A DNA stretch of 64,000 bases from Clostridia bacterium (GTDB lineage Bacteria; Bacillota; Clostridia; UMGS1883; UMGS1540). The stretch lies in assembly GCA_045533905.1 (NCBI GenBank), contig JAZSIR010000001.1, positions 7,617 to 71,616 on the forward strand, in the 5' to 3' direction. The first letter of the stretch is position 1. Every line of letters begins with the position of its first letter. Below the pieces are notes generated by a model. The model ran no database searches. It had not been told where the DNA came from and saw only the letters and a list, made by a program, of their open reading frames with translations. Positions 18,550 to 34,079 of this stretch are shown here, one piece after another. The position numbers and the translations under genes were made by a program.

Positions 18550-18578
18550 TTGACGCACATCTTGCGATATGTTAGAAT
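18550..18578 (+). promoter_or_regulatory. Sigma-70-like promoter for the recombinase operon.
   Basis: TTGACG, then 17 nt, then TAGAAT. About 240 nt of leader follow before the first ORF. Confidence 0.5.
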
Positions 18579-18959: not shown

Positions 18960-19051
18960 TCTTTTAGTTTTTGTTTAATATTTGTCTGGATATATTAAGT
19001 TATTTGTGGTATTGTTGTCTTGAAAAAAATATGGAAAGGAGTGTGAGGCTG

Positions 19052-20593
19052 ATGTCAGAAGTAATTGTTATCCAAGGAAATCATACAAAAAACGAACCTG
19101 TGTTAAAGCGAGTATCCGCTTATGCCAGAGTAAGCTCTGCTTCAGACGAACAGCAATACTCCTTCCATAATCAGGTTCAGCACTTTACAAGCTTGATACA
19201 GGGAAATCCCGATTGGAAATATGTAGACATATATGCCGATGAAGGTGTAACCGGCACAAGAGAGGACAAACGCAGTGAATTCAACCGAATGATAAGAGAT
19301 GCCGAGGATGGACTGATGGACATTATCATTACAAAATCAGTCTCACGCTTCGGCAGAAATGTTTCAGAGTGCCTAAGAACAGTAAAACATCTCAAGGATA
19401 TTGGAGTTACCGTGATATTCGAAGAGGAAGGTCTTGATTCGGGAAAGCCTGCTGACTTTACAATGATATCTGTAAAAGCAGCAATGGCAGAACAGGAATC
19501 AATCTCTACTGCTGAGAACGGCAGAATGGCAAACCGCCAGAGAATGAAGATGGGTACATTTGTTCAAAGCAATCCTCCAATCGGTTATACATTAAACGGC
19601 ACGGAATTCGAGGTTAACGAGGAACAAGCCGATGTTATCAAACGAATATTTGCCGAATACCTGTCAGGAAGTGGTACAAGCAAAATTGCCGATGGGCTTA
19701 TGAAAGATAAAATTCCCAATAAGTATGGCAAGGTGCATTGGACACCGCAAAGTGTCAGCTATATCATAAATAACCCAAGATACAAAGGCGGTGCCCTGTT
19801 CCAGAAATCCTTTAAGACAGGATTTCCGTATAAGAAAAAGAAGAACACAGGCGAACTGCCGATGTATTATGCAGAGGATGCCAATATCCCCATAGTAAGT
19901 GCAGAAGACTTTGACAAAGCAGCCGAGCTTATGCAGACAAGGCGTGAAAAGCATGCCCAGGAAAACAACGAGAATGCAAGTATCTTTGCAAAGAAGATAT
20001 ATTGCAGGCACTGCGGTTCCACTTATCGATATAAAAATGGTACAGATACATGGGTATGCAGAACACACGATAAAGGCACAGACAAATGTCAGGCAATGCC
20101 TGTAAGCGAAGAAATGCTTAAAAAGGCATTTGTTCAAATGTATAATAAGCTGAAAGCAAATTATGAGCATATCCTTCTCCCGTTCTTAACACAGGTAGAG
20201 GCTATGAAGATAAACAAGGCAGAGCAAGATAGAATTGCTGATATCAACATGCAAATAGCACAGAATACAGAGCAGGTTTTATCGCTCCGAAGACTAAAGA
20301 GTCAGGAGCTGATAGAGCCTGCTTTCTATATTCAGGAGCTTAACCGCTTTGATAAGCAAACAATGGAACTTCGGAAAAAGAAAAATGCCATACTGCACAA
20401 CAACCGATATGATGACATTATCTCAAAGACCAGAAAAATCATAAGAGAAATGGAATCGGCTTGTGCAATAGGCAAATTCGATGCTGATAGCTTCAAAAAT
20501 CTTGTAAGCAGAATTGAAGCAGATAATGAAATAATAACCTTTATCCTCATAAACGGAATGGGGCTTGAGGTTAGCAAAAAGGAGGTGTTATAA
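19052..20593 (+). CDS. Large serine recombinase (resolvase catalytic domain, recombinase domain, zinc ribbon, coiled coil).
   Basis: Catalytic motif AYARVSSASDEQ and the resolvase core (DVYADEGVTGT..SRFGRN). The ORF track begins at 18971. A start at 19052 (MSEVIV) or 19031 is likelier; the upstream extension is AT-rich and lacks an RBS. Confidence 0.85.
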   Translation: MSEVIVIQGNHTKNEPVLKRVSAYARVSSASDEQQYSFHNQVQHFTSLIQGNPDWKYVDIYADEGVTGTREDKRSEFNRMIRDAEDGLMDIIITKSVSRFGRNVSECLRTVKHLKDIGVTVIFEEEGLDSGKPADFTMISVKAAMAEQESISTAENGRMANRQRMKMGTFVQSNPPIGYTLNGTEFEVNEEQADVIKRIFAEYLSGSGTSKIADGLMKDKIPNKYGKVHWTPQSVSYIINNPRYKGGALFQKSFKTGFPYKKKKNTGELPMYYAEDANIPIVSAEDFDKAAELMQTRREKHAQENNENASIFAKKIYCRHCGSTYRYKNGTDTWVCRTHDKGTDKCQAMPVSEEMLKKAFVQMYNKLKANYEHILLPFLTQVEAMKINKAEQDRIADINMQIAQNTEQVLSLRRLKSQELIEPAFYIQELNRFDKQTMELRKKKNAILHNNRYDDIISKTRKIIREMESACAIGKFDADSFKNLVSRIEADNEIITFILINGMGLEVSKKEVL

Positions 20594-21457
20594 ATGGCAA
20601 ACCGTTACCTTGCATTCGGCTACAAAATAGCTGACGGCAAACTTTGTGTTGAAGAAACTGAGGCAGAACTTGTAAAGGCGACCTTTACACTGTATGCGGC
20701 AGGAAAATCCTACAGCCAAATTGCTGAAAGATTTACCTTAAGCGGAATCAGATACAACATTGATTTTGACAAATGGAATAAAAATATGGTAAAGCGGATA
20801 ATTGAAAACGATAAATATATCGGCAGGAACGGTTATCCGCAAATCATAGAAGAAAAGCTCTATAACAAGGCGAACAAGACAAGAATTTCAAAAGTCATAA
20901 ATAAACCGCCTGAAAAAGCAGAGCTTGACAACTTCCTTCGGTCTCATTCGGAATGCCCGGTTTGCAGCTCCCCGATAAAAAGGCAGAATCAATGCTACGG
21001 CGAGAATAGGTCTGTGGCATATAAATGTACCAATTCTGTATGCCCGGCGAAATCTGTTAAAGAGAATCGACTTGTAAATCTCATAACGGAATTGCTTAAC
21101 GAAATTGCAAATGATTTAAGTCTTGCAGATGAACCTGTTATAACCGCAATTCCCGATGATGAACTGACAGACGATATGGCAAACGATATCTACATAAAAA
21201 TGCTGACGGAATACGATAAGGATGAAGTGCTTGCAGACATATATGAGCTTGCAAAATTCAAATTCCGAAACAGTATCAAAACAGATATGAGTGCAGTTAC
21301 AGAAAGAATAAAAAAAGAGCTTTGCAAGTATGGGATACTTACAGAGCCTCATCTTCCGCTTATGCAGAAAATTATATCAAAATTCTATGTAGGCGGTCAG
21401 GAAGAGCTTTCTATACTGCTTACCAATGGAAAATTAATAACAAGGAGTGTGAATTAA
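20594..21457 (+). CDS. Recombinase-domain / zinc-ribbon protein that lacks the N-terminal serine-recombinase catalytic domain.
   Basis: Recombinase-domain signature (YLAFGYKIADGKLCVEETEAELVKATFTLYAAGKSYSQIAE) and a Cys ribbon (CPVCSSP..C..CTNSVCPAK). It has its own AAGGAGGTG RBS and is not a frameshifted continuation of the upstream gene. Confidence 0.7.
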   Translation: MANRYLAFGYKIADGKLCVEETEAELVKATFTLYAAGKSYSQIAERFTLSGIRYNIDFDKWNKNMVKRIIENDKYIGRNGYPQIIEEKLYNKANKTRISKVINKPPEKAELDNFLRSHSECPVCSSPIKRQNQCYGENRSVAYKCTNSVCPAKSVKENRLVNLITELLNEIANDLSLADEPVITAIPDDELTDDMANDIYIKMLTEYDKDEVLADIYELAKFKFRNSIKTDMSAVTERIKKELCKYGILTEPHLPLMQKIISKFYVGGQEELSILLTNGKLITRSVN

Positions 21458-21459
21458 AG

Positions 21460-23064
21460 ATGGCAAATGTAATCGAAATACCTGCAACAAAATCATATTT
21501 CGGGCATAGTGCAAAGCGAGTCCTGAATGTGGGTGCTTATGCGAGAGTCAGCACCGAGGCGGAGCAACAAGCAAAAAGCTTTGAAACTCAGGTTGAACAC
21601 TATACCAAACTGATCAAAGAAACTACCGGTTGGAAATTTGTAGATGTATATGGCGATGAAGGTATCAGCGGAACCTCTATATACAACCGACCAGAGTTTC
21701 AGAGAATGATGAATGATTGCAGAAAAGGCAGGCTGGACTTAATAATAATTAAATCAGTATCAAGATTCGGCAGAAATTCCGCCGAGAGCTTACAATGTAT
21801 CAGAGAACTTAAGGATTTAGGTGTCGGAGTAATATTTGAAAAGGAAGGTATCAATACCCTCAACTATACGACCGAGATGTTCATTGCACTGCATACCATA
21901 TTCGCTCAATCCGAAAGTGAGTCGATGAGTGAAAATATAAAAATGGGCAGAAGTTACAGATACCGTGAGGGTAAGTGCTGCTATAACTTTAACGGAGTAT
22001 ACGGCTTCAGTCAGGACGATGAAAAAAACATATCAGTGGAAATCGGCAAAGCAATCAATGTCAGGTTCATCTTCGACTGCTTCATAAAAGGTATGAGCAT
22101 AGAACAAATTGTCAATGCACTTGCCGAAAGAGAAATCCCCTCTCCGAGAGGTAAAGAAAGATGGTCGCCCGGCTCAGTGGAAAGAATACTTAAGAATGAA
22201 AAATATGCAGGTGATGTTCTGACCTCAAAGACATTAACTCTTGATCCAATCTCAAAGAAAAAGGTAAAGAACACAGGTCAGGCTCCGCAGTATTATATCA
22301 GAGACCATCATCCGCCAATCGTAGAACGAGAACTGTTCGACAGTGTACAAGAGGAAATTAGCCGACGTGGATGTATCAAAAAGTTTGATAAAAAACAAAG
22401 CTATGGAAAATACAGCGGGAAATTTCCTTACAATGACTTAATATTCTGTGGTGAGTGCGGTGCCAAATACAGACGAACAGAATGGAAAACCCGTAGCGGT
22501 GATAAGAAATATGTGTGGCGATGCCTGAACAGAATTCAGAACGGACAAGATTGCTGTAAGAATTCTCCTTCCATCAACAATAACTTTATGAATGAGGTTA
22601 CGCTCGAAGCTATCAATGCGATATACACAAGTAGAAAAAGAGTAAAGGACATATTAAAAAGCTCAATCGCCTCTCTACTCGGGGATACCGAACAGCCAAA
22701 GATAAGTGCAAATATGGAAAAGCTTAATCTAATGAGCGACAGAATGCGTGAGGCTATATACCAAAATGCTAACGGTGAAATATCAACGGACGAGCTTGAC
22801 AGAATATGTCTGGAAGTAAAGATGGAATCGCAAAGACTGCGTCAAGAGAATAAGGAATATGAGATGGAGAGAAAGATGAAATCAACCGAGTCATCTAAGC
22901 TGAAGCTTATCTTCAAAGCCATTGATGGTATGGAAGATAAGGTGAGCGAGATTGATACACCTCTCATTCGAAGCATCATCGAAAGATACGAGGTTGTGTC
23001 AAAGAAAAAGATGATCATATGGTTCATCGGCGACATACCTTATGAGGTTGACCTACCGAAATAA
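21460..23064 (+). CDS. Large serine recombinase.
   Basis: AYARVSTEAEQQ, then VYGDEGISGT..SRFGRN, plus the recombinase domain and zinc ribbon. The start at 21460 follows an AAGGAG RBS. The ORF track's 21322 start overlaps the upstream gene. Confidence 0.85.
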   Translation: MANVIEIPATKSYFGHSAKRVLNVGAYARVSTEAEQQAKSFETQVEHYTKLIKETTGWKFVDVYGDEGISGTSIYNRPEFQRMMNDCRKGRLDLIIIKSVSRFGRNSAESLQCIRELKDLGVGVIFEKEGINTLNYTTEMFIALHTIFAQSESESMSENIKMGRSYRYREGKCCYNFNGVYGFSQDDEKNISVEIGKAINVRFIFDCFIKGMSIEQIVNALAEREIPSPRGKERWSPGSVERILKNEKYAGDVLTSKTLTLDPISKKKVKNTGQAPQYYIRDHHPPIVERELFDSVQEEISRRGCIKKFDKKQSYGKYSGKFPYNDLIFCGECGAKYRRTEWKTRSGDKKYVWRCLNRIQNGQDCCKNSPSINNNFMNEVTLEAINAIYTSRKRVKDILKSSIASLLGDTEQPKISANMEKLNLMSDRMREAIYQNANGEISTDELDRICLEVKMESQRLRQENKEYEMERKMKSTESSKLKLIFKAIDGMEDKVSEIDTPLIRSIIERYEVVSKKKMIIWFIGDIPYEVDLPK

Positions 23065-23280: not shown

Positions 23281-23432
23281 ATAAGAAAAACATTCGCCTA
23301 CTTCCTCTCCCCTCCTTTTCGCAAAAGGTCACGTTCAAGTCGGCTATTCGCTTGTAAACGCGCTCATAACGCCTTTTTTCACTACCAACCTTTTGCGAGT
23401 GTGCCTTCGGCACGATCTGTATTGTTATGTAT

Positions 23433-23470
23433 AAAAAGGGCAGATTTTATAGAAATCTGCCCTTTTTCTT
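23433..23470. terminator. Bidirectional hairpin terminator at the 3' end of the polyvalent-protein gene.
   Basis: A-run, then gggcagattt-tata-gaaatctgccc, then T-run. Confidence 0.6.
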
Positions 23471-23509
23471 ATTTTTCTATTTGCTTTTTCACAAGGCTTT
23501 CGTCCCATC
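23469..23509. repeat. Direct repeat copy A. Duplicate of the 3' end of the acyl-CoA synthetase gene.
   Basis: About 87% identical over about 40 nt to 27576-27616. Both copies encode ESLVKKQIEK-stop, and all four differences are synonymous. Confidence 0.7.
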
Positions 23510-26500
23510 CATATTCTTTAATATATGTATCTGCCTCTTTTAGGGCCTTTTTGTCTGTGTAGGCATCATACGAGAAGATACCGTCCTCGACCATTTTCTC
23601 AATCGTCGGTAGCGCTTCGTCAGGGGTTGCCTTGGCTTCAAGGATTGTGCGAACGGTCTGCGATACTTTCTTGTTTTTTCCTGTTTTCTGAGGCACTTGT
23701 ATGTCTCTGTGCGGTTTTTCTCCGCTTGGGATTGCGCCGTACCTTTCTATAAGCTCGTTGTAAAGTTCAGTACTTACGTGCCCTTTCTCTACATACTTTG
23801 CCAACTTGCGTTTGGCGGCCTCGTCCCCTTTTTGCAAGCCTTGAATGGTGGCAACATATTCCCTCTCCGAGAGCATGCCTTTGAGAGAAAAATCACTCTT
23901 GACTTTTTGTTCGGGATGTGCTACACTCTTGTTAAGGTCAGCACTTGTGTGCCCTGCCTCAGCATCTGTATTGATGCTTGCAGGGAAAGTGTTGGCCGTT
24001 TCTTTTTCCCAAACCCTGTGCACCCAGAATTTGTTTTTCTGCGGTGATTTTTTAATATCTAGGCGGATGGTAACGTCTTTTCCGTCGACCTCCAGCGTAT
24101 GCTCGATGTACGCAAATTTTTTATTATCGCTGTTTCCGTATTGGTTTTGAACATTATCAGCAACAAGACGTCCTTTCTCGATGATTTCTGGTAATCTCCT
24201 TATCGTAGCAAGCTTTGTAATTTTCTTATTCTTACCGAGACGTGCATAATTTTTCAAATTAAATGTCTCGTCGATTCCGCTTTTATTTGTTTCAATAATC
24301 ATACCGGAATCTTCGTTGACGTCTACTCTTTTTCGCTTCTCGGTATCTGTAAAAAAGTTTTCCCCGAGAAGAGTTTTTAGCACTTGTCTTTGCACGTGAA
24401 TGTAATCCCCAGGCGCGTCAATCCCAAAACTTTCAAAGGTGCTTTTAACAAACTCGTCCGAATAGTTGCTCTCACGCCTCGCGGGGACGCTTTCAACCGC
24501 TTTTATATAGTCGGAGTCTTTGAGAGAAAAATCACTCTTGACAATTTTTTGGGGGTGTGATATATTATCCCTAGAGTAGTTCTCTTTAACGTCTTGGACG
24601 TACGCCTTGCGGATTTCATGCAAATCAGCGAGATATTGAGAACTACTCTGTTTTTTATGTATAGCATCAATCAAGCCATACAGGTTTGGAATACTATCTA
24701 TCCCCGTTTTTACCATTTGCTTGTTAATAAGAAGTTTTTCTCTGTTATATTCCGTTGTTATTGCTTCGACATAATAAATCACATCACCCGGCATTACTTT
24801 TACATAAATCAAACCCGGATCACCATTTGCGTTTGTTTTGTAAAATACTTTATCGTAATTTTCAACAATATACGGAATTAGCTCAACATCTGCTTCGGTA
24901 ACAGGGTATTTTTCATTTGTTTTTTTGCCGTGGGAGTTCTTGATATGCCGAATATCATTATCGCGCAACGCATGAGAATAACCCGATATATCCACATCAG
25001 AAGATACTTCATTTATCAAATCCCTTCCAACCTTTAGGAATTTAATGTAAGATTTTTCATTATCGTTTAGATAGGCTTTTTCTATGTACCGGTTGATGTC
25101 AGATTGCGTAACCTCAAAATCAAACACTTTATCCGCATATCCTAATGTCTTCAAGGAAAAGTCCACACCGCCCTCTGGAGCGGTGTTCTTTTGTCCGTCT
25201 ATTCTCTTGAGTGAATAGCTCTTTTCTTCCGATTCTCTGAAGAGATTTTCGAGGACATTTCTAAAAGCTCGGCTTCCGTTGCGTTGGGATTGTCTCGGCA
25301 AAACTCCAACATTTTGATTGTGTCTTCCGCCTCCCAGGTTTCGAAGATTATTTTGACTACTGTTGACATTTTGCAACCAACTTCCTTGAGATACCCTTTG
25401 AGCAAAACTTGGTTTTCCGTTAATACCCTTGCCATCTTCTTCGTCCTCCAATAAATCAATTAAAATATCTAATTCAAAGCTTCCGTCATCGCCTTTTCTT
25501 TCGTAGAGGATTGTAGGATGTTCTGGGGTTTCCGTGCTGTATATGGCAAACAAAGCTTCTCCGTCAATTCTGCCTTTATACCAACATCCAACCGTATCTG
25601 CGATTCTTTTAGGTTCGTGATTCTCAACCTGCCGAATCCAGTCTTCCAGCATTTTGAACTGCGTTGCGTTCAAATCTGTGCGCCATTTTAACGAATAGCT
25701 TGTATTTCCATTATACTCCGCTCCCATGTTTTTTTCAAGAGTATCGGAGGAATTCTCTTTTTTGAGAGAAATTTCATTCTTGACAGAATTTGAATTTTGT
25801 GGTATATTGTCATTAGAAACACTATCCCGTGTAGCCTGTCTTTCGGCAGGCAATCTGGTCATTCTTTCGAGAAGACCAATCTCGGCGGTAGTGTTTTCTT
25901 CAATCCCAACAATATCGTATAGGTATTTGTTGCCATCAGAAGCATTCCTAATCAACAGCTCGACATCAAAAGCTCGTACCTTTGTTATCTTTCCTCGATT
26001 ATCTTTTATCGGGAAAGCAAAGGAATTAGCATAACGATACATACCATACTTCGCATCCTTATTATGTGTGTGCTGCGTCTTTTCCCACCTGCGATTCGTA
26101 GCTGTTTCTATCAATTCTCCAAAGCCGTCAACAGCTTTATTTTTACCTCTTGCGGCGGTGCGATTAACCCTACGGAGAAAAGTGGTGTACTTCGAATGCG
26201 TGTACTCTTGCGGCAAATCCTCGCCAATGTAGACCTTCTGCCCACTTTCTATAATCGTATAAACTTCGCCTATATGTTGTGCAATGTAGCCTGCAACAGC
26301 TTGATGGCTGTTTAATTGCTTGTTGGTCAGTCCACTTTCTTCAATCCATACAAAGCTCTTGCCATCAACATTTTTCAAGCTAAAGTCTACGCCGTCCTCT
26401 GTGTCGGTGTTTTTTTGTGCCTCTGCGGTCTGTTTAGTATGAGCCTTTGCTTCCACCGCCTTTTTGTTTTCCACAGCCTTTGCGACAGCAGTCTCAAACA

Positions 26501-27566
26501 TATCGCGAAGACTTGTGATTTCGTCAAGCTTTGGCTGAATCTTTGCTTTTTCTTTGGCGCTCTTGCCTGCAAGAAAATCACGAATTTTCCTAATCATCTC
26601 GGCAAGATACTCAATGTACTTCCGCAAGCCTTGCTTTGCCTTTTCGTCCGTGCCGTTGATGATGCTGTCAATAGCCTTATGGAATCGCGCCTCATCGTTG
26701 CCGTAAAGGTAGAGAATGTTGTTTGCAGAAACTTCTTCCATTGCCTTTGCAAGAGATATTTCCTCGCCCTGTGCGGCGTATGCACTTCGTTTTTGGTCTG
26801 CAACGGTAAATATAGACGGCTCATTGCCGGCAATGTGATTATACATCGCATACACAAACGCGCTGCCTTCTTCAGGGGCAAGGTCGACAACTCTATGCAG
26901 CGCTATTTCGTGCGCCGCATGGAAGACAATAGATACCTTCTGCCCGCCCACTTCTCTTTCAAAATCGAAGTCAATAGGCACTTCCCCCGTTTGCCTGTTG
27001 TACTCGGCGTTGCCTTTTAGGCCCTTTGCCATATACGCCTTTACGCCAAGTCCTTCTGCTAAAAGATTGAGCGTTGCAACCTCGCTTTGTTTAACATCGC
27101 TCGGCAGGTTTTCCGCAAGAACGCCGCTTTCCATATTTACAACTGCATTTCTAAACCTTTCTTTGGCGGCGAGGTCTTCCATTTTTCTGTCCATCTGCCC
27201 TGCCGTGAACGCATCTTCTTGTGCTTTGGATATAAATACGTCCTTGCCTTTTTTAACATTCAAGTCCGGTTGCTTAAAGCCTGTCATGTACGATGCCTTG
27301 ACCTCTTCCAGCACTTTGTTAAAGGTTGCCCCGTCTGCATTCGAATAATTGGCCACAAGTTTCGCCCCTTCCTCGCCAAACCCCGTGACCTTTCTTACCT
27401 CGTCGGCGGTTATCTCCACGCCGTTCTCGGTGAGGACATCTAGTGTTTCGCTGCTTACGATTCCTCTTCTGCGGTTTTCAAGAAGGGTGTAACCGTCTAC
27501 TCGATTTTTTCTACCGCGCCCATTGCCTTCCTTATACGCAAAAAGGCTGTGAAACCTAGGTTTCAC
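23469..27566 (-). CDS. Giant multi-module protein of the 'polyvalent protein' type found in conjugative elements and phages, with repeated module-boundary motifs and nuclease/toxin-like modules.
   Basis: 1365 aa with a GTG start. The D/Y-FSLK motif recurs four to six times (VDFSLKNVDG, VDFSLKTLGY, SDFSLKDSDY, SDFSLKGMLS, YSLKWRTD, YSLKRIDG). Between the recurrences are segments such as HALRDNDIRHIKNSHGK..VIYYVEAITTEY, with a small RNase/RelE-like flavour. No similarity to housekeeping families. It ends with the same 9 aa (SLVKKQIEK) as the adjacent synthetase. Confidence 0.55.
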   Translation of the reverse strand: MKPRFHSLFAYKEGNGRGRKNRVDGYTLLENRRRGIVSSETLDVLTENGVEITADEVRKVTGFGEEGAKLVANYSNADGATFNKVLEEVKASYMTGFKQPDLNVKKGKDVFISKAQEDAFTAGQMDRKMEDLAAKERFRNAVVNMESGVLAENLPSDVKQSEVATLNLLAEGLGVKAYMAKGLKGNAEYNRQTGEVPIDFDFEREVGGQKVSIVFHAAHEIALHRVVDLAPEEGSAFVYAMYNHIAGNEPSIFTVADQKRSAYAAQGEEISLAKAMEEVSANNILYLYGNDEARFHKAIDSIINGTDEKAKQGLRKYIEYLAEMIRKIRDFLAGKSAKEKAKIQPKLDEITSLRDMFETAVAKAVENKKAVEAKAHTKQTAEAQKNTDTEDGVDFSLKNVDGKSFVWIEESGLTNKQLNSHQAVAGYIAQHIGEVYTIIESGQKVYIGEDLPQEYTHSKYTTFLRRVNRTAARGKNKAVDGFGELIETATNRRWEKTQHTHNKDAKYGMYRYANSFAFPIKDNRGKITKVRAFDVELLIRNASDGNKYLYDIVGIEENTTAEIGLLERMTRLPAERQATRDSVSNDNIPQNSNSVKNEISLKKENSSDTLEKNMGAEYNGNTSYSLKWRTDLNATQFKMLEDWIRQVENHEPKRIADTVGCWYKGRIDGEALFAIYSTETPEHPTILYERKGDDGSFELDILIDLLEDEEDGKGINGKPSFAQRVSQGSWLQNVNSSQNNLRNLGGGRHNQNVGVLPRQSQRNGSRAFRNVLENLFRESEEKSYSLKRIDGQKNTAPEGGVDFSLKTLGYADKVFDFEVTQSDINRYIEKAYLNDNEKSYIKFLKVGRDLINEVSSDVDISGYSHALRDNDIRHIKNSHGKKTNEKYPVTEADVELIPYIVENYDKVFYKTNANGDPGLIYVKVMPGDVIYYVEAITTEYNREKLLINKQMVKTGIDSIPNLYGLIDAIHKKQSSSQYLADLHEIRKAYVQDVKENYSRDNISHPQKIVKSDFSLKDSDYIKAVESVPARRESNYSDEFVKSTFESFGIDAPGDYIHVQRQVLKTLLGENFFTDTEKRKRVDVNEDSGMIIETNKSGIDETFNLKNYARLGKNKKITKLATIRRLPEIIEKGRLVADNVQNQYGNSDNKKFAYIEHTLEVDGKDVTIRLDIKKSPQKNKFWVHRVWEKETANTFPASINTDAEAGHTSADLNKSVAHPEQKVKSDFSLKGMLSEREYVATIQGLQKGDEAAKRKLAKYVEKGHVSTELYNELIERYGAIPSGEKPHRDIQVPQKTGKNKKVSQTVRTILEAKATPDEALPTIEKMVEDGIFSYDAYTDKKALKEADTYIKEYGWDESLVKKQIEK
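27548..27565. repeat. Perfect 18-bp palindrome gtgaaacc-TA-ggtttcac at the island/synthetase junction, overlapping the polyvalent gene start.
   Basis: Self-complementary with a central TA dinucleotide. It encodes MKPRFH on both strands. Confidence 0.6.
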
Positions 27567-27575
27567 ATCCTTTTC

Positions 27576-27616
27576 TTATTTCTCGATTTGCTTTTTTACG
27601 AGGCTTTCGCCGCAGT
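27576..27616. repeat. Direct repeat copy B. The actual 3' end of the acyl-CoA synthetase gene.
   Basis: See copy A. Confidence 0.7.
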
Positions 27617-29204
27617 ATTTTTCGCGGAGTTTCGGTTTTTCGATTTTGCCGGTGGGGTTGCGCGGTACATCGGCGAAGATGATGCGGCGCGGTCTTTTAT
27701 ATCGTGGAAGTGCCTGACAAAACGCTTCGATATCTGCTTCCGTGCAGGTGCTGCCGGGCTGCAGTTCGATAATGGCCGCGGCAATCTCGCCGAGTCTGTC
27801 ATCCGGAAGGCCGATAACGCCCACGTCCTTAATCTCGCGGTTTGTGCGGAGAAAATCTTCAATCTGCACAGGGTAGAGGTTTTCGCCGCCTGTGATGATA
27901 ACGTCTTTTTTGCGGTCTACGAGGAAAATGAAGCCATCCGCATCTTCCATGGCCATATCGCCTGTGTAGAGCCAGCCGTCGTGCAGTACCGCATTTGTGG
28001 CCACCTCATCGCGATAATAGCATTTCATAACGCCGGGGCCTTTTACTGCAAGTTCCCCCACTTCGCCACGAGAAACGGTGCTTCCGTTTTCGTCAATAAT
28101 CTTCGTTTCCCAAAGATGACCGGCAATACCGATGGCGCCCACCTTATGTATATTCTCTACGCCAAGATGTACACAGCCGGGGCCGATAGATTCGGAAAGC
28201 CCGTAATTGGTATCATATGCGTGATTCGGGAAACGCTCACGCCAGCGCTTTATAAGGCTCGGCGGTACCGGCTGTGCGCCGATATGCATGAGCCGCCAAG
28301 AAGCAAGGTCATATTCTTCTATATTGACATCGCCGCGGTCAATCGCATCGAGAATATCCTGCGCCCACGGCACGAGAAGCCATACGATAGATGCCTTTTC
28401 CTCGGAAGCGGCTTTTAAAATCCACTCCGGCTTTACGCCGCGAAGAAGCACTGCTTTGCCGCCGACCAGAAAGCTTCCGAACCAATGCATCTTCGCGCCG
28501 GTATGATACAGCGGCGGAATGCAGAGGAACACATCGTCCTTCGTTTGCCCGTGGTGTTTATTTTCCGTAATGCACGAGGATATGAGGCTTCTGTGTGCAT
28601 GCAAAATAGCCTTGGGGAAGCCTGTGGTGCCGGAAGAAAAGTAGATGGCCGCATCGTCCTCTTCCGAAAGCGGTGCATCCGTAAAGTCTGCACACATTTC
28701 GGGGAGGCGCCCGTTATAATCTACGGCAAAATCGGGTGTATCCTCACCCACAAAGATATATTGTTTCACGCCGGGCATATCGCCCTTGGCCGCGGTTACG
28801 CGTTCTGTAAACTCAGGGCCAAAGATCAAAACATCCACCTCAGCAAGACCCGAGCAATAGGAAATTTCATCTGCTGCATAGCGGAAATTCATAGGCACGG
28901 CCAGTGCGCCCGTTTTGAGAATACCAAAATAGATGGGAAGCCACTCGAGGCAGTTCATAAGAAGGATTGCAACCTTATCCCCCTTCTTGATGCCAAGCGC
29001 TGTGAGCATATTGGCAAAGCGGCAGGCGCTTTCGTCAAACTCGCGCCATGTGATTTCGCGGCGCCCTGCATTTTTTGCGGCCGCTTCCACTAGCTCAAAA
29101 TCGCGCCAAGCCTGCTTTTCACGCACCTCGGGGCTGATTTCTACAAGCGCCGCACAGCTACCGTACTTCCTTGCATTTTCTCTTAAAACCTCAGTAATAA
29201 CCAT
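27576..29204 (-). CDS. AMP-dependent acyl-CoA synthetase / long-chain fatty-acid-CoA ligase.
   Basis: AMP-binding motif YFSSGTTGFPKAILHAH, then YHTGAKMHWF, then GWLYTGD..VDRKKD. Start placed at the ATG with a GGAAGGA RBS (MVITEV); the ORF track begins 8 codons earlier. Confidence 0.8.
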   Translation of the reverse strand: MVITEVLRENARKYGSCAALVEISPEVREKQAWRDFELVEAAAKNAGRREITWREFDESACRFANMLTALGIKKGDKVAILLMNCLEWLPIYFGILKTGALAVPMNFRYAADEISYCSGLAEVDVLIFGPEFTERVTAAKGDMPGVKQYIFVGEDTPDFAVDYNGRLPEMCADFTDAPLSEEDDAAIYFSSGTTGFPKAILHAHRSLISSCITENKHHGQTKDDVFLCIPPLYHTGAKMHWFGSFLVGGKAVLLRGVKPEWILKAASEEKASIVWLLVPWAQDILDAIDRGDVNIEEYDLASWRLMHIGAQPVPPSLIKRWRERFPNHAYDTNYGLSESIGPGCVHLGVENIHKVGAIGIAGHLWETKIIDENGSTVSRGEVGELAVKGPGVMKCYYRDEVATNAVLHDGWLYTGDMAMEDADGFIFLVDRKKDVIITGGENLYPVQIEDFLRTNREIKDVGVIGLPDDRLGEIAAAIIELQPGSTCTEADIEAFCQALPRYKRPRRIIFADVPRNPTGKIEKPKLREKYCGESLVKKQIEK

Positions 29205-29348
29205 GTATACCGTCCTTCCGTACTGCATAATGTACTATTTATACAGTATACCGCAAAAAAAGGAGTTTGTAAATACCCAAAATTTCTTTTCGCATACTTT
29301 TTCTGTTTGTGCACAAGATAAGAAAAGTATATAAAAAGGAGAACCCCA

Positions 29349-31154: not shown

Positions 31155-34079
31155 CTAGTAACGGAAAATGATAATTGCCTTTACATTGTAGGAACCTGTG
31201 TAGTAGACCAGAATCTGCGATGCAGAATCTGCATTGTTTGTAATTGAATACGGCTGAATGTTGCCCTCAAGGCTTACATCCATCTGTACCTTCATATCGT
31301 CCTTCACGGCCGTATAGTCATACAGGAACACTTTGGCATTCTTGACATTATCAAAGAGGAACTCGTCTACTCTCTGGATACCGCCTTCGTCCTCTTTGAT
31401 GGTCGGAACCAGCGACAGGGACATCTGCCCGTTTTCTTCCTTTTCGAAGCCCATCGCCGTGCCGAACAAGAAGCCGCCTGCTGTCGCAGAATCTAACACT
31501 GTATCTACTTTGAAGATTCGTGCCTCTTTTGCGGCTTTTGCCACCTCTTCAAGTTCGCCACGAAGCGGCGTGGAAACCTCAACGCCATCGCAGTTGAACA
31601 CGGTTGCTTTCGTTGTGCCAAAATCTATGAGCTGCTGCGTATCGCTGACTTCGCCATCTGCGACTGCATACCGGAACATATCGCCTTGCTGATACTTACC
31701 GCGGAGCATTTCCTCTTTGGTGCTGCGGACATCCACTGCCGAACCGCCGGGGAATGTAAGACCTGAAACCCTATCCATAATTTCTGCAGTTTCATCGTCA
31801 CGCACGCTGGAAACCTCTGTTGCAATCATAATGGGCGATTTCGTGTTAATAGCTGCGCTACCCGCAAAAATACCGCCCGAGTAGGAAATGGCATACTTTG
31901 CGATTTTCGTACTGCCGACATTAAACGCTTCCATCTGATATTTCGTATTGCTCGTAAAGGAATTCCGGATGAAATATTTGGAGGTGTCTGTAACATCCAT
32001 CGGGATTTCCAGAACCTTGGTGGAAGAGTTTGCAATAAAGGCTACCTTCCCCTGCCCGTTTTCAAAACGGCCACTCGTGGTGTGCTTCAGTACATTTTCT
32101 CCATCCTGCTCTACCGTGTTATCCTGCGGATAGGAAACATCCAGAGAAAGGTCGGAGGAATTCTTCTTATTGAGAATCGTATCAATCGTGTCAATCTTTC
32201 CTGCAGAAGTTTTACTGTAACGAATCATCTGCGAATACGGCGTGACCATAATGCCGGCTTCCGCTTTTCCCTCGTTGTAAATGGTGGCCGCATCTTCCAG
32301 AGCCTTTAAGGCATCTGCAGGTTCGCGATACAGCTCGCCGTCAATCGTTACAGGGTCAGCAAGTACCATCGTCTGGCGCTTGGTTGTGCCCGTGATACCG
32401 TAGAAGGTAGCATATACGCTTCCGCTTTTGCCGGCTTCCTTATCCGCATCAATGAGAAATGCAAGATACGTTGTACTTTGCGCTGTGGACACGGTTGCCG
32501 CAGCGATTTTGCCTTCCATATCAAGGTATACGGAAACCTGTTCGCCAAGCTTCATTTCCGGCTTTGTGCCCGTATAGCGGGCATAGTTATCAGCAATAGC
32601 ATAATAGGCATTTCCGATTTTTCTTCTGCCGTCTCCGTCGACTTCCGTGATTTTGCCGGTGACTTTTTTCGTGGAAACAACGCCATTCCAAATGCCCTTG
32701 CCTTCTGCCGTGGGCTTGGAGCGCATAACGCTAATAACATTCCACTGAGAGAGCGAATTAATGATAGCTTCGGGCGTATCGGTGTTTCCCTGCTTTGTCA
32801 GCGAAAAATGTACGCCGGAATTTTTATAAGGGATCTCGAGTGTGCCCGCGTTGTACTTTCCGTACACCTTCGGCGGGTTCATATTCTTATCCGCGCTGTT
32901 CACTACGAAGTTTTCGTACTCGGTTACGAAGGCTACTTCGGCATCGCCGTCACCATCGTTACAAATAAGTTCCACGATTGCGGAGCCAAGGTCACCGAAG
33001 TCATCCGTATCATACGTAGCATCGTGCTTGCCGTTATAAATAACCTCTACATCTTCAATCCCCATTTTCTGGGCTCGTCCGCCTTTTTCGGCATAGTAGG
33101 TGACGATTCCGTCAGAAACGGTCTCGATCATATCCGATGTGAGCCTTACCTCTTCCGTTTTGGTTATGGTAATCTGGGATATTTCAAGGGTATCATCCAT
33201 GCCCGGTTCTACATAAGCACTGATTTTTCTGCCGAGGATGGACATTGTATCATACCCTTCGGGTACATTATAAAGTTTTTCTTCGCCTTTGACTTCTACC
33301 AGAATGCGATCTTTGGCAAGGCTTGTATCCCCGCCGTAAATACCGGTCTGCGGTACGCCCGTAACAATACCGGTGATCTGTTCTTTGCCTTGGAACTTAT
33401 CGAGGGCTGTCTGCGAGTCCGAAATAATATTGCCATCGGCATCTGTTTCTATAATTTCAACGCGCAGGCAGTTGTTTGTGAGAATCGCAACTGTGCCACG
33501 GGAGGCATAGTCCTCCACATTATTGACGGAAGCGTTCTTCAGAATGCCCTGTTCAGCCGCCACGGCCATATAGCCCGAATACCACGGGGCGCCCGGTGCC
33601 GTGCGGCGTTGTGCCATATCTCCATAACCCAGGGAGCAGACAAGCATCTTTACGATTTCCGTATATCTGACGGGTGCATCCGGTTGGAATGTGCCGTCGG
33701 TATAGCCGTTTACAATCTTCTGGTCTGCCGCAAGCTTAATGTACTTTTTGGCCCAGTGCGCTGCATCGTCCACATCCGGGAATCCGGAGGGAACTGTATC
33801 GAATGCAATGCTCTCCTGCCCGAGGAAAGAAATGATGATTTTGGAAACCTCGCCGCGCGTAATGGTGTTATCCGCGCGGAAGGTACCATCCTCGTACCCG
33901 TTGATAATGCCGAGCTTGACAAGCTCTGTAACAGCCTTTCCCACCGTGCTGCCGGCATCAATGTCTGTAAGATTTACCGCGCCCGTCGCCGTTTCTTCCG
34001 CAAAAACACCGAGAGGCACAAGCGAAAACAGCATCAAAACGCTCATAAGTGCCGCTAAAATTCTTTTTCGAATCTGCAT
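31155..34079 (-). CDS. S-layer-homology (SLH) domain surface protein of 974 aa.
   Basis: Signal peptide, then three N-terminal SLH repeats (FTDIDAGSTVGKAVTELVKLGIINGYEDGTFRADNTITRGEVSKI; FPDVDDAAHWAKKYIKLAA..), then a large beta-rich region. Confidence 0.7.
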   Translation of the reverse strand: MQIRKRILAALMSVLMLFSLVPLGVFAEETATGAVNLTDIDAGSTVGKAVTELVKLGIINGYEDGTFRADNTITRGEVSKIIISFLGQESIAFDTVPSGFPDVDDAAHWAKKYIKLAADQKIVNGYTDGTFQPDAPVRYTEIVKMLVCSLGYGDMAQRRTAPGAPWYSGYMAVAAEQGILKNASVNNVEDYASRGTVAILTNNCLRVEIIETDADGNIISDSQTALDKFQGKEQITGIVTGVPQTGIYGGDTSLAKDRILVEVKGEEKLYNVPEGYDTMSILGRKISAYVEPGMDDTLEISQITITKTEEVRLTSDMIETVSDGIVTYYAEKGGRAQKMGIEDVEVIYNGKHDATYDTDDFGDLGSAIVELICNDGDGDAEVAFVTEYENFVVNSADKNMNPPKVYGKYNAGTLEIPYKNSGVHFSLTKQGNTDTPEAIINSLSQWNVISVMRSKPTAEGKGIWNGVVSTKKVTGKITEVDGDGRRKIGNAYYAIADNYARYTGTKPEMKLGEQVSVYLDMEGKIAAATVSTAQSTTYLAFLIDADKEAGKSGSVYATFYGITGTTKRQTMVLADPVTIDGELYREPADALKALEDAATIYNEGKAEAGIMVTPYSQMIRYSKTSAGKIDTIDTILNKKNSSDLSLDVSYPQDNTVEQDGENVLKHTTSGRFENGQGKVAFIANSSTKVLEIPMDVTDTSKYFIRNSFTSNTKYQMEAFNVGSTKIAKYAISYSGGIFAGSAAINTKSPIMIATEVSSVRDDETAEIMDRVSGLTFPGGSAVDVRSTKEEMLRGKYQQGDMFRYAVADGEVSDTQQLIDFGTTKATVFNCDGVEVSTPLRGELEEVAKAAKEARIFKVDTVLDSATAGGFLFGTAMGFEKEENGQMSLSLVPTIKEDEGGIQRVDEFLFDNVKNAKVFLYDYTAVKDDMKVQMDVSLEGNIQPYSITNNADSASQILVYYTGSYNVKAIIIFRY

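What the first reader, a model, noticed from the sequence alone, without database searches (positions are those of the whole stretch)
23469..27566. 1365-aa multi-module 'polyvalent'-like protein with recurring DFSLK boundary motifs
A very large gene with no housekeeping similarity shows the [D/Y]FSLK motif four to six times, dividing it into modules of about 200-400 aa. Several modules have a small-nuclease/RelE-like flavour (for example HALRDNDIRHIKNSHGK…VIYYVEAITTEYNREK). This is the organisation described for polyvalent proteins of conjugative elements and phages, which are multi-effector proteins injected to counter host defences. The gene has a GTG start 9 nt after the synthetase stop, no promoter of its own and no obvious adjacent immunity gene.
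Basis: partly seen in the sequence, partly recalled or inferred. Interest (0 to 1): 0.65.

Follow-up and report, generated by a model that had tools for sequence, protein, structure and literature searches.

The report
Stranded phage polyvalent gene with antisense-promoter linkers
The 1365-codon ORF is a leftover piece of a giant multi-enzyme protein that certain gut and rumen Clostridia phages appear to pack into their virions, and the repeated 'DFSLK' boundaries lie in linkers whose DNA carries strongly conserved promoter-like, and in some relatives terminator-like, signals on the opposite strand.

Summary
The ORF (minus strand, 27566→23469) has DFSLK four times and YSLK twice, against 0.2 expected.

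Three things change the picture.
1. This copy is a fragment. Family homology covers only aa 19-1354. The GTG start lies inside the terminator hairpin of the upstream acyl-CoA synthetase gene. The last 11 codons duplicate that gene's 3' end. A 44-nt imperfect direct repeat brackets the insert and no other phage gene is present.
2. Full-length relatives (2100-3800 aa) lie in prophages and viral contigs, downstream of lysis and internal-virion-protein genes. In one prophage the gene lies close to a tRNA attachment site.
3. The linkers are conserved as DNA. At 40 distinct sites after the M2 module, the antisense strand reads TTGAC(A/T)-17 nt-TAtAnT, in two different codon phases. In 17 of 48 loci the linker before M2 is an antisense hairpin plus T-run.

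Best reading: a prophage relic whose modules carry portable antisense transcription signals. No transcript has been shown.

The parts
23469..27566 (-). The 1365-codon ORF as listed (GTG to TAA)
   Evidence: identical to database protein P0001
23505..27512 (-). The part (aa 19-1354) that is homologous to other polyvalent proteins, i.e. the phage-derived fragment
   Evidence: N-terminal alignments begin at RKNRVDGY. C-terminal homology stops at ...EYGW, whereas relatives continue ...SF.DWM.DVEKG.VSK..(A/V)MGWALYNNAVN
26385..27512 (-). Module M1 (aa 19-394): helical, function unknown. Distant members carry HExxH; this copy has HAAHEIALH
   Evidence: AF2 pLDDT 74, no Foldseek match in the PDB
26389..26417 (+). 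Antisense hairpin plus U-run inside type A linker 1 (peptide AQKNTDTEDGVDFSLK)
   Evidence: RNA fold -11.4 kcal/mol, z = -3.4. Codons shown
25773..26384 (-). Module M2 (aa 395-598): the most widely shared module, with a weak and unconfirmed resemblance to LPD3
   Evidence: 7 of 31 members weakly match LPD3, best E = 1.3e-5; a profile comparison with the LPD3 module M5 gave no support. AF2 pLDDT 61, with FSLKNV as the first beta strand
25780..25808 (+). Antisense promoter-like site P_c (TTGACA-17-TATATT with TG) in type B linker 1 (SNDNIPQNSNSVKNEISLK)
25218..25697 (-). Module M3 (aa 624-783): unknown function, shared with P0002, P0003, P0005, P0007 and P0083
25149..25217 (-). Two linkers back to back (YSLKRIDGQKNTAPEGGVDFSLK, aa 784-806) with no module between them
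25165..25192 (+). Antisense terminator-like hairpin (ACACCGC...GCGGTGT followed by TCTTTTG) in type A linker 2
   Evidence: -17.2 kcal/mol
24744..24998 (-). PBECR3 predicted RNase domain (aa 857-941) within module M4 (aa 807-1012)
   Evidence: Pfam PF18812, E = 1.3e-12, 48 bits against a cut-off of 30. The motif Y.HALRDNDIRHI.NSHG is at least 90% conserved in 63 homologs and intact here
24538..24566 (+). Antisense promoter-like site P_b (TTGACA-17-TATATT with TG) in type B linker 2 (SRDNISHPQKIVKSDFSLK)
24030..24326 (-). LPD3 domain (aa 1081-1179) within module M5 (aa 1013-1225)
   Evidence: Pfam PF18798, E = 6.4e-10, 39.7 bits against a cut-off of 27
23899..23927 (+). Antisense promoter-like site P_a (TTGACT-17-TACACT with TG) in type B linker 3 (NKSVAHPEQKVKSDFSLK)
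23505..23891 (-). Module M6 (aa 1226-1354): the N-terminal part of a domain that continues in relatives, cut off here
23464..23507 (.). Direct repeat copy A. It supplies the last 11 codons (ESLVKKQIEK) and the stop of the ORF, plus 5 nt
   Evidence: D4: 44 nt, 86% identity, spacing 4107
27571..27614 (.). Direct repeat copy B: the 3' end of the AMP-binding gene (…CGESLVKKQIEK*)
   Evidence: This C-terminus is native to the AMP-binding family (L001-L003)
27535..27575 (-). Terminator hairpin with A- and U-tracts just after the synthetase stop. It contains the GTG 'start' of the ORF
   Evidence: -17.5 kcal/mol, z = -5.7
23430..23470 (-). Strong terminator hairpin with A- and U-tracts just after repeat copy A
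   Evidence: -20.3 kcal/mol, z = -6.4
27576..29228 (-). AMP-binding (acyl-CoA synthetase type) gene whose 3' end was the insertion target
   Evidence: Pfam AMP-binding and AMP-binding_C. 82-83% identical orthologs in Oscillospiraceae/Clostridia genomes assembled from metagenomes (MAGs)

Best explanation
The ORF is a stranded fragment, cut at both ends, of a giant polyvalent protein gene from a temperate Clostridia phage.

In intact relatives (2100-3800 aa) the gene lies in a late, virion-associated block. The order read in three independent prophage contexts is lysis genes, phrog_12105, a phrog_511 'internal virion protein', one or two small or unknown genes, then the polyvalent gene; tail-fibre-like genes were identified upstream only in L085. 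In L085 the polyvalent gene lies close to a tRNA attachment site, and in L082 it is followed directly by host ruvAB. The protein is therefore presumed to be packed in the capsid and ejected with the DNA, after which its modules act on the new host. Here those modules are a PBECR3 RNase-like domain, an LPD3 domain and four unassigned modules, one of which (M2) weakly resembles LPD3. Some relatives also carry ADP-ribosyltransferase domains. This delivery route is inferred from gene context and from Iyer et al. 2017.

In this window a phage of this kind apparently integrated into the 3' end of an acyl-CoA synthetase gene. The two 44-nt repeat copies would be attL and attR. Almost all of the prophage was then lost. 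About 4.0 kb of the polyvalent gene remains, still open, borrowing an accidental GTG inside a terminator stem and the host gene's last 11 codons. The bracketing repeat, the double truncation and the absence of other phage genes are shown. The integration-and-deletion history is inferred.

The recurring DFSLK motif belongs to about 20-residue linkers of three kinds.
- Type B (N-I-[PS]-[QH]-x(4)-V-K-x-[DE]-[FI]-S-L-K). On the antisense strand it is a near-consensus sigma-A-type promoter: an upstream A-tract, TTGACA, 17 nt, a TGn extension and TAtAnT. The same DNA element is kept in relatives in two different reading phases, so the DNA is what is conserved.
- Type A (Q-K-N-T-x(3)-G-G-V-x-[FY]-S-L-K). 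On the antisense strand it is a GC hairpin followed by a T-run.
- Type C (S-Y-S-L-K). No DNA-level signal was found.

Modules M2 and M4 thus sit inside a promoter-to-terminator unit pointing against the gene, predicted to make non-coding antisense RNAs of about 600 nt. M5 has the promoter but no matching terminator. Conservation of the sequences is shown. Transcription and its purpose are inferred. Possible purposes are silencing a toxic late gene in lysogens or excluding related phages.
For: Family identity:
- PBECR3 and LPD3 score above their Pfam cut-offs.
- 86 relatives were found with the whole protein. A separate search with M4-M5 found 714 proteins at E <= 0.001, up to about 4200 aa long, with the modules at variable positions.

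Phage origin:
- 43 IMG/VR viral contigs carry M2 inside ORFs of 2100-3800 aa.
- The conserved neighbourhood with phrog_511 internal virion protein and lysis genes appears in three independent contexts.
- P0055 matches the 3513-position profile phrog_22978 with E = 1.7e-299.
- In L085 a tRNA-Gly 3' end lies about 200 nt beyond the holin gene that follows the polyvalent gene.

Relic status:
- Homology covers only aa 19-1354.
- A 44-nt direct repeat brackets the insert.
- ...CGESLVKKQIEK* is the native C-terminus of the synthetase family.
- No other phage-like gene is in the 64 kb window.
- The GTG lies in a terminator stem.
- A related orphan, P0003, is likewise truncated in M6 and lies 78 nt from the 3' end of a tRNA-Met gene.

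Antisense elements:
- The scan tool ranks the two TTGACA-17-TATATT(+TG) sites on the + strand first in this region.
- All 6 type B linkers in 4 genes use Val codon GTC, which is 15% of Val codons overall.
- An unbiased scan of 50 genes (385 kb) gives 34 antisense hits against 4 sense hits. Synonymous-codon shuffles give 4.8 +/- 2.0.
- At the M2 3' boundary the promoter score reaches 11 or more in 30 of 48 loci, against 2 of 197 control windows.
- 40 distinct sites give T40 T40 G40 A37 C37 (A29/T11), a variable 17-nt spacer, then T40 A40 T34 A36 n T40. The peptide is S-I...V-[KN] in one phase and Q-Y-T...S-Q in the other.
- The independent scan tool finds a 12/12 antisense site in L111, and an 11/12 site plus an antisense terminator in L083, a locus whose polyvalent gene has 58% GC.
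- Antisense hairpin plus T-run at type A linkers: 16 cases in 13 genes with differing stems, and 17 of 48 loci against 7 of 197 controls.

Precedent: the 786-nt antisense RNA STnc6030 of Salmonella prophage BTP1 lies opposite a DNA-injection gene and excludes superinfecting BTP1 (PMC7067206).
Against: - No close relative of this genome was available to show an empty site. The best synthetase orthologs are 82-83% identical and share nothing downstream. The att interpretation of the repeat therefore remains an inference.
- No integrase lies between the repeats. The only recombinases nearby, three serine-recombinase genes, lie outside them.
- Two separate deletions, both leaving the reading frame open, are needed. 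That is somewhat unlikely unless the ORF, or its DNA, is under selection.
- dN/dS against P0002 and P0003 is about 0.1, so no decay is visible, although this mostly reflects history before stranding.
- Three other close relatives are also lone genes at ordinary chromosomal loci. This may point to retention for a function.
- Terminator-like sites as a class are not enriched on the antisense strand over synonymous shuffles (143 against 114-155). Only about a third of M2 cassettes have a clear one.
- No transcript data exist.
Confidence: 0.62

Rival explanations
1. The ORF is the working cargo of a small integrative element that also includes the three adjacent serine recombinase genes and the DUF6076 gene. 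The element moves as a unit and delivers or expresses the polyvalent protein.
For: Serine recombinase genes at 18971-23064 lie about 400 nt beyond the 3' end of the ORF. The low-GC stretch (0.32-0.43) runs from about 14.4 kb to about 26 kb, against about 0.50 or more beyond 27.2 kb.
Against: - The direct repeat brackets only the polyvalent fragment, and the recombinases are outside it.
- No transfer, replication or virion genes are present.
- The middle recombinase ORF lacks the catalytic Resolvase domain.
- The phage relatives examined show a tyrosine integrase or tRNA-associated ends, not serine recombinases.
- The ORF is truncated at both ends relative to every full-length relative.
Confidence: 0.08
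2. The fragment has been domesticated. The protein is made from an internal promoter or by read-through, and it serves the host as a toxin or as an anti-phage factor.
For: - A 4.1 kb ORF stays open in 43% GC DNA.
- The PBECR3 catalytic-looking motif is intact.
- dN/dS is about 0.1.
- Other lone copies sit at fixed chromosomal loci and are polymorphic between strains. P0002 and P0024 have flanks 96-97% identical but an unrelated centre.
- A sense-strand promoter-like site lies at 25738-25710.
Against: - The start codon lies in a terminator stem, and no ribosome-binding site at normal spacing is visible.
- Three strong antisense promoter-like sites oppose sense transcription.
- There is no immunity gene, no secretion signal and no PADLOC hit.
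- The conserved C-terminal half seen in virion-associated relatives is missing.
Confidence: 0.15
3. The linker motifs are purely protein features: protease cleavage sites that release the modules, or the first beta strand of each module. The antisense promoter and terminator resemblance is a by-product of the codons.
For: - [FY]SLK in type A and type C linkers is kept with different codons, including Ser AGC against TCC.
- AF2 places FSLKNV as the first strand of a hairpin in M2.
- Iyer et al. propose proteolytic processing of polyvalent proteins.
- Distant M1 relatives carry HExxH.
Against: - The promoter-like element persists when read in a different codon phase with an unrelated peptide.
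- Synonymous shuffling that keeps the peptide removes most of the sites, 34 against 4.8.
- Rare codons (GTC, ATA, AGT) are used even in a gene with 58% GC.
- The invariant positions are exactly those invariant in sigma-70/sigma-A promoters (own knowledge of promoter consensus).
- [FY]S[LIVM][KR] is not enriched in the wider M4/M5 family (25 against 32), whereas the promoter-bearing linker is (72 against 2).
Confidence: 0.12
4. It is an ordinary cell-surface or adhesin repeat protein.
For: The window is rich in SLH and Flg_new surface proteins.
Against: There is no signal peptide, SLH domain or wall anchor. The modules are unrelated to one another and match phage polyvalent domains.
Confidence: 0.01

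Closest known systems
Phage-type polyvalent proteins (Iyer, Burroughs, Anand, de Souza & Aravind 2017, J Bacteriol, PMC5512222)
   Same: Several unrelated effector and LPD domains sit in one polypeptide. Two of the Pfam families built from that work (PBECR3, LPD3) are present, with ART-PolyVal, MuF_C, PBECR5 and LPD38 in relatives. Mosaicism is extreme and relatives are encoded next to virion genes.
   Different: This copy is an orphan fragment with no phage around it. No MPTase, MuF or portal domain was detected. A text search of that paper finds no occurrence of the word 'linker', so the conserved linkers and their antisense promoter- and terminator-like DNA appear not to be described there.
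H. pylori prophage jhp1044-type mosaic PBECR/LPD3 polyvalent proteins (described in PMC5512222)
   Same: PBECR and LPD3 domains are duplicated and rearranged into many architectures among orthologs.
   Different: The host phylum and the sequences differ. This was not compared directly here.
MuF polymorphic toxins of temperate phages (Jamet et al. 2017, PMC5576092)
   Same: Phage-encoded, virion-associated carrier of variable toxin domains.
   Different: There is no MuF domain here. Relatives follow an internal-virion-protein gene and not a portal gene. Several effector modules are present instead of a single C-terminal toxin, and there is no immunity gene.
STnc6030, the antisense RNA of Salmonella prophage BTP1 (Owen et al. 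2020, PMC7067206)
   Same: A long (about 0.8 kb) non-coding RNA from a host-type promoter inside prophage late genes, antisense to a DNA-injection protein gene. It is expressed in lysogens and excludes the cognate phage. This is the nearest functional analogue for the predicted antisense units.
   Different: STnc6030 is experimentally shown and is a single unit. Here the units are only predicted, are repeated, are tied to module boundaries and are conserved across many phages.
Lambda paQ and OOP antisense promoters (own knowledge; OOP is mentioned in PMC7067206)
   Same: Host-RNAP promoters inside phage genes that fire against them to tune lysis-lysogeny or late expression.
   Different: Those are single sites in regulatory genes. 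They are not embedded in the linkers of a modular effector gene.

Membership tests
Polyvalent proteins (Iyer et al. 2017) | Two or more (2-15) distinct effector or LPD domains in one polypeptide | tested here: met
   PBECR3 (aa 857-941), LPD3 (aa 1081-1179), M2 with a weak LPD3 resemblance, and three further modules shared independently with other proteins
Polyvalent proteins (Iyer et al. 2017) | [quoted passage not shown] | tested here: met
   PF18812 scores 48 bits against a cut-off of 30. PF18798 scores 39.7 bits against 27
Polyvalent proteins (Iyer et al. 2017) | Encoded by a phage or conjugative element, next to virion or T4SS genes | tested here: not met
   Not met in this window: there are no virion or transfer genes in 64 kb. 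It is met for full-length relatives, so this copy is read as a derived fragment
Polyvalent proteins (Iyer et al. 2017) | Zincin-like MPTase domain for self-processing (frequent hub, not obligatory) | tested here: inconclusive
   There is no Pfam MPTase hit. M1 relatives have HExxH, but this copy has HAAHEIALH. The AF2 model has no significant Foldseek match
Polyvalent proteins (Iyer et al. 2017) | Delivered into the recipient cell with the invading DNA | not testable with these tools
   Needs virion proteomics or injection assays
PBECR3 (BECR-fold predicted RNase) | Sequence match to the family and retention of its conserved polar residues (His in the N-terminal helix) | tested here: met
   Pfam E = 1.3e-12. 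Y.HALRDNDIRHI.NSHG and the later conserved residues are at least 90% conserved in 63 homologs and present here. RNase activity itself was not tested
MuF polymorphic toxins | N-terminal MuF (SPP1 gp7 / Mu gp30) head-morphogenesis domain | tested here: not met
   There is no MuF hit in this protein in Pfam, and no PHROGs hit at all
Integrated prophage or prophage remnant | Direct repeats (att cores) that bracket the foreign DNA at the 3' end of a host gene | tested here: met
   44-nt repeat, 86% identical, at 23464-23507 and 27571-27614. It duplicates the native 3' end of the synthetase gene
Integrated prophage or prophage remnant | Integrase and other phage genes between the repeats | tested here: not met
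   Only the polyvalent fragment lies between the repeats. This fits a remnant but not an intact prophage
Integrated prophage or prophage remnant | An empty site in a close relative | tested here: inconclusive
   No close genome was found. Exact-protein look-ups and one exact-pattern metagenome scan returned nothing. Orthologs at 82% identity have unrelated downstream DNA
Cis-antisense RNA units in prophage late genes (STnc6030-like) | Host-type promoter on the strand opposite a late or injection gene | tested here: met
   Met at the sequence level only: three sites in the window, conserved at 40 distinct sites in relatives irrespective of codon phase
Cis-antisense RNA units in prophage late genes (STnc6030-like) | A detectable non-coding transcript with an effect on the phage | not testable with these tools
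   No conserved antisense ORF exists, which fits a non-coding RNA. No expression data are available
Cell-surface adhesin or repeat protein | Signal peptide plus repeated homologous units or a wall anchor | tested here: not met
   The N-terminus VKPRFHSLFAYKEGNGRG... has no hydrophobic segment. The modules are unrelated to each other, and there is no SLH or anchor domain

The most novel reading that the evidence does not exclude
The linkers of these phage polyvalent genes are portable antisense transcription signals: a promoter-like element, in some cases paired with a terminator-like hairpin. Each such module would then come with its own roughly 600-nt antisense RNA made by host RNA polymerase. 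Orphan fragments like this one, and those at three other chromosomal loci in related MAGs, would be retained because these antisense RNAs block expression of the ejected polyvalent protein of incoming related phages. That would be an RNA-based superinfection-exclusion or defence function derived from a prophage relic. The 'DFSLK' motif would then be partly the peptide shadow of the A-tract upstream of the -35 box.
Probability: 0.2. Interest if true: 0.8.

Novelty: new variant of a known kind. Interest (0 to 1): 0.6.

Why it matters
Polyvalent proteins are a recognised but almost untested class of phage and plasmid weapons. This case adds three points.

1. It places a large, uncultured family of them (hundreds of proteins, 43 viral contigs) next to internal-virion-protein genes in Clostridia prophages of gut and rumen. 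That makes the 'ejected multi-effector' idea testable in a defined phage group.

2. It shows that a conserved 'protein motif' at domain boundaries can be a DNA signal read on the other strand. This is a caution for motif-based annotation. It is also a possible new layer of regulation, either silencing of toxic late genes or exclusion of related phages.

3. Lone polyvalent fragments recur at ordinary chromosomal loci. This raises the question of whether bacteria keep such relics for their antisense RNAs or as reservoirs of modules.

If the promoters prove inactive, what remains is an ordinary prophage relic of a known protein class.

Tried and rejected
- PHROGs on the ORF itself gave no hit, PADLOC gave none and the plasmid collection gave none. 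The cultured-phage collection gave one weak M2 hit in an unannotated record.
- hhalign of the M2 profile against the M5 sequence was uninformative.
- A second word-index search with M1 returned only one new fragment.
- Empty-site search: the exact-pattern metagenome scan returned nothing. Exact look-ups of the synthetase and of P0001 returned nothing. 80 synthetase loci share nothing downstream. Comparing the repeat copies with orthologs did not show which copy is the host's.
- Antisense ORFs as hidden immunity genes: rejected. No frame stays open across loci, and there is no visible RBS or start and no Pfam hit.
- Global enrichment of antisense terminators: not found against synonymous shuffles. 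Only the type A linker subset stands out.
- [FY]S[LIVM][KR] as a universal polyvalent-protein motif: rejected. It is not enriched in the wider M4/M5 set.
- The direct repeat as serine-recombinase att sites: considered unlikely. Such sites need not share a long repeat, and the recombinase genes lie outside the repeat (own knowledge of large serine recombinases).
- The Rfam Thr_leader hit at 23430-23503 (30.8 bits against a gathering score of 55) is the terminator hairpin and not a leader.
- No flanking repeats were found around the orphans in L081, L086 and L090 beyond a doubtful 15-mer.

Full report
**1. What is there**

The ORF runs on the minus strand from GTG at 27566 to TAA at 23469, 1365 codons. 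It follows an AMP-binding (acyl-CoA synthetase type) gene at 29228→27576 after 9 nt and in the same reading frame. Downstream and convergent are three serine-recombinase ORFs at 18971-23064, then a DUF6076 gene. GC is mostly about 0.39-0.43 over the 3' two-thirds of the ORF, rising towards its 5' end, against 0.50 or more in the synthetase gene and beyond. The rest of the 64 kb is ordinary Clostridia chromosome: SLH surface proteins, Lgt, MutL, Mur ligase and the like. The best synthetase orthologs, 82-83% identical, are in Oscillospiraceae and Clostridia genomes assembled from gut and rumen metagenomes (MAGs).

**2. The motif is real**

DFSLK occurs four times (aa 395, 803, 1013, 1226) and YSLK twice (aa 624, 784), with an EISLK variant at aa 599. 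[FY]S[LIVM][KR] is seen 6 times against 0.2 expected, and DFSLK 4 times against 0.0012. In 86 relatives the motif occurs 99 times against 18 expected. Ends of pairwise homology fall within 5 residues of it seven times more often than random positions do.

**3. It is a polyvalent protein**

Pfam finds PBECR3 (aa 857-941, E = 1.3e-12) and LPD3 (aa 1081-1179, E = 6.4e-10), both above their gathering scores. Both families come from the polyvalent-protein survey of Iyer et al. 2017 (PMC5512222).

Cutting the protein at the motifs gives six modules, and each is shared independently with other proteins at very different positions.
- M2 (aa 395-598) is the commonest. It is strongly conserved and weakly resembles LPD3, with 7 of 31 members matching at best E = 1.3e-5. 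A profile comparison with the LPD3 module M5 gave no support.
- M4 keeps every residue that is at least 90% conserved among 63 homologs, including Y.HALRDNDIRHI.NSHG.
- An exhaustive HMMER search with M4-M5 finds 714 proteins, up to about 4200 aa long.
- Relatives add ART-PolyVal, MuF_C, PBECR5 and LPD38 domains.

**4. Where the family lives**

Full-length relatives of 2100-2400 aa sit in prophage-like contexts with a constant order: endolysin or holin, phrog_12105, a phrog_511 'internal virion protein', one or two small or unknown genes, then the polyvalent gene. Tail-fibre-like genes were identified upstream only in L085. P0055 matches the 3513-position profile phrog_22978 at E = 1.7e-299.

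In L085 the polyvalent gene and a holin gene are followed within about 200 nt by the 3' end of a tRNA-Gly gene and then by host genes. In L082 the polyvalent gene is followed directly by host ruvAB. In L083 it is followed by six small genes and then a tyrosine integrase gene on the opposite strand.

Forty-three IMG/VR viral contigs of 9-48 kb carry M2 inside ORFs of up to 3788 codons. No plasmid carries a relative. The family is therefore phage-type. From its neighbours it is presumed to be an internal virion protein that is ejected; this is an inference.

**5. This copy is a stranded fragment**

- At the N-terminus, relatives align only from aa 19 (RKNRVDGY...). Where M1 is internal, or in P0024, the preceding sequence is ...LEQAAREVVA..., whereas here it is VKPRFHSLFAYKEGNGRG.
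- The GTG and the first codons lie in a 41-nt hairpin with A- and U-tracts (27535-27575, -17.5 kcal/mol, z = -5.7). This is most simply the terminator of the synthetase gene.
- At the C-terminus, relatives continue ...EYGWt.SF.DWM.DVEKG.VSK..(A/V)MGWALYNNAVN... for 90 to more than 800 residues. This ORF switches after EYGW to (D)ESLVKKQIEK*.
- That ending is the C-terminus of the synthetase itself (...YCGESLVKKQIEK*) and is native to the synthetase family (L001-L003).
- At the DNA level, 44-nt direct repeats (23464-23507 and 27571-27614, 86% identical, 4107 nt apart) bracket the fragment. The second copy is followed by a strong terminator.
- No other sequence in the window resembles any polyvalent protein or any gene from the phage contexts.

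The simplest history is as follows. A phage integrated into the 3' end of the synthetase gene and supplied a replacement 3' end plus terminator, as many integrases that target gene 3' ends do (own knowledge). Deletions then removed everything except about 4.0 kb of a gene near the attachment site.

A parallel case supports this. P0003, the closest M1/M3 relative, is also cut within M6 and lies 78 nt from the 3' end of a tRNA-Met gene. It is in the same MAG whose synthetase locus has no insert.

The history remains an inference, because no close strain was found.

**6. The linkers are conserved as DNA, on the other strand**

The promoter scan of the region ranked first two + strand sites, TTGACA-17 nt-TATATT with a TG extension, at 24538-24566 and 25780-25808. 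A third site lies at 23899-23927. All three sit in the 57-nt repeats that encode the type B linkers ...DNI(P/S).Q...VK(S/N)(D/E)(F/I)SLK.

The correspondence between peptide and antisense DNA is exact.
- V-K (GTC AAG) gives cTTGAC.
- The four variable residues form the 17-nt spacer.
- [PS]-[QH] gives TGTGn.
- N-I (AAT ATA) gives TATATT.
- K-F-S / D-F-S gives an upstream A-tract.

Four tests point to conservation of the DNA itself.
1. All six such linkers in four genes use Val GTC, which is 15% of Val codons in those genes.
2. In 50 polyvalent genes (385 kb) a strict promoter pattern occurs 34 times antisense and 4 times sense. Shuffling synonymous codons, which keeps every peptide, leaves 4.8 +/- 2.0 antisense hits.
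3. At the 3' boundary of M2, 30 of 48 loci score 11 or more, against 2 of 197 control windows.
4. Forty distinct sites, from loci whose M2 is only 31-100% identical to ours, give T40 T40 G40 A37 C37 A29/T11, a variable 17-nt spacer, then T40 A40 T34 A36 n T40. These are the positions that are invariant in sigma-70/sigma-A promoters. In seven loci the same DNA is read in a different codon phase as Q-Y-T...S-Q instead of S-I...V-[KN].

The independent scan tool confirms a 12/12 antisense site in L111. It also confirms an 11/12 site plus an antisense terminator about 575 nt downstream in L083, a locus whose polyvalent gene has 58% GC.

Type A linkers (..QKNT...GGV.[FY]SLK) form, antisense, a GC hairpin followed by a T-run.
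- There are 16 cases in 13 genes with differing stems: ACCGCC/GGCGGT, ATCACC/GGTGGT, ACCAAC/GTTGGT and others.
- 17 of 48 loci have one, against 7 of 197 controls.
- In this window they lie at 26389-26417 (-11.4 kcal/mol) and 25165-25192 (-17.2 kcal/mol).

In this window M2 and M4 are each enclosed by an antisense promoter and an antisense terminator, which predicts RNAs of about 600 nt. M5 has a promoter only. No antisense frame is conserved or has a plausible start, so any product would be non-coding.

Limits on this evidence:
- Antisense terminator-like sites as a class are not above the synonymous-shuffle background.
- Only about a third of M2 cassettes have a clear terminator (alignment).
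- Nothing here shows transcription.

**7. What DFSLK is, then**

In type B linkers F-S-L-K overlaps the A-tract just upstream of the -35 box. In type A and type C linkers the same four residues are kept with different codons, for example Ser AGC against TCC. AF2 models FSLKNV as the first beta strand of M2. The tetrapeptide therefore probably also has a protein-level role.

The tetrapeptide is specific to this subfamily. In the wider M4/M5 set it is not enriched (25 against 32 expected), whereas the promoter-bearing linker [IV][STPA]Q.{4}V[KN] is (72 against 2).

**8. Function**

For the intact phage gene, the inferred route is packaging, ejection and multi-target action of its modules (predicted RNase, LPD3 domain, ART in relatives), as proposed for phage polyvalent proteins (PMC5512222).

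For the antisense units, the closest precedent is STnc6030 of Salmonella prophage BTP1. It is a 786-nt antisense RNA opposite a DNA-injection gene, and it excludes superinfecting BTP1 (PMC7067206). Silencing of a toxic late gene in lysogens is the other obvious role.

For this window's copy, the upstream terminator, the doubtful start and three opposing promoter-like sites argue that the protein is not made. The DNA may still produce the antisense RNAs.

**9. Other lone copies**

- P0002 and P0024 occupy the same chromosomal site, between an ECF-S gene and an SLH/CAP gene followed by rpsF-ssb-rpsR, in strains with 96-97% identical flanks. Their central 2.8 kb and 1.7 kb are unrelated.
- In their shared C-terminal part, dS is about ten times that of the flanking gene and dN/dS is 0.2.
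- P0006 sits between a lactamase_B-family gene (next to ileS) and galK.
- In the strict scan, 12 of the 34 antisense hits fall in the five orphan genes, which make up about 5% of the sequence scanned. I noted this as a lead and did not test it further.

**10. Verdict**

The copy is most likely a prophage relic and not an active weapon. The boundary motif led to an apparently undescribed feature of this phage gene family: conserved antisense promoter-like elements, and in some cases terminator-like hairpins, built into the inter-module linkers.

Noticed in passing
window 17401-23064: Three tandem serine-recombinase ORFs lie at 18971-20593, 20594-21457 and 21322-23064 (+). The middle one has only the Recombinase domain plus a weak zinc-finger match and lacks the catalytic Resolvase domain. 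A divergent DUF6076 gene (17401-18507, -) and a small Flg_new/DUF6550 ORF (16785-17339, +) sit beside them. This looks like the end of a second, possibly decayed, integrative element just outside the direct repeat. Its boundaries were not found.
   Followed up: partly
L081 4166-8422 and L088 10001-13351: Two strains of one Oscillospiraceae-like species carry lone polyvalent genes (P0002, 1418 aa; P0024, 1116 aa) at the same site. The flanks are 96-97% identical but the central 2.8 kb and 1.7 kb are unrelated. In L081 the reading frame stays open upstream of the annotated start and there matches the N-terminus of P0024.
   Followed up: partly
L090 8745-8899: The orphan P0003 ends within M6, earlier than this window's copy. 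A tRNA-Met gene on the opposite strand lies 78 nt downstream, with its 3' end facing the fragment. A doubtful 15-nt repeat (AAACGACATTCTTTG / GAACGAGGTTCTTTG) flanks the fragment.
   Followed up: partly
window 25149-25217: Two linkers lie back to back (YSLKRIDGQKNTAPEGGVDFSLK) with no module between them. This looks like the scar of a module lost by recombination between linkers.
   Followed up: no
window 25710-25738 (- strand): A sense-strand promoter-like site (TTGAAA-17-TATAAT, 11/12) lies inside the ORF just after the M2 linker. It could in principle drive the distal part of the ORF.
   Followed up: no
L111 6335-6357, L083 6474-6494 and other loci: A second antisense hairpin plus T-run recurs inside M2, opposite the conserved peptide EKT(K/R)H..NKDA.YG.Y.Y, roughly 250 nt downstream of the antisense promoter. 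In this window (around 26053) the equivalent is weak.
   Followed up: partly
window 23430-23503: A weak Rfam Thr_leader hit (30.8 bits against a gathering score of 55) coincides with the terminator hairpin after repeat copy A. It is almost certainly a false positive.
   Followed up: yes
window 27576-27566 junction: The synthetase ORF and the polyvalent ORF are in the same frame, separated only by TAA plus three codons. The 3' junction with the duplicated synthetase end is also in frame.
   Followed up: no
window 51263-57943, 49871-51202, 31155-34079, 14410-16602: Several very large SLH-domain surface proteins are present, one of 2226 aa with Flg_new repeats. The host therefore has an S-layer-type envelope. 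These are unrelated to the finding.
   Followed up: no
L086 11276-15107: The orphan P0006 contains linker DNA repeats of 55-183 nt at 73-97% identity, repeated up to five times. They carry several antisense TTGACT-18-TATACT sites.
   Followed up: partly
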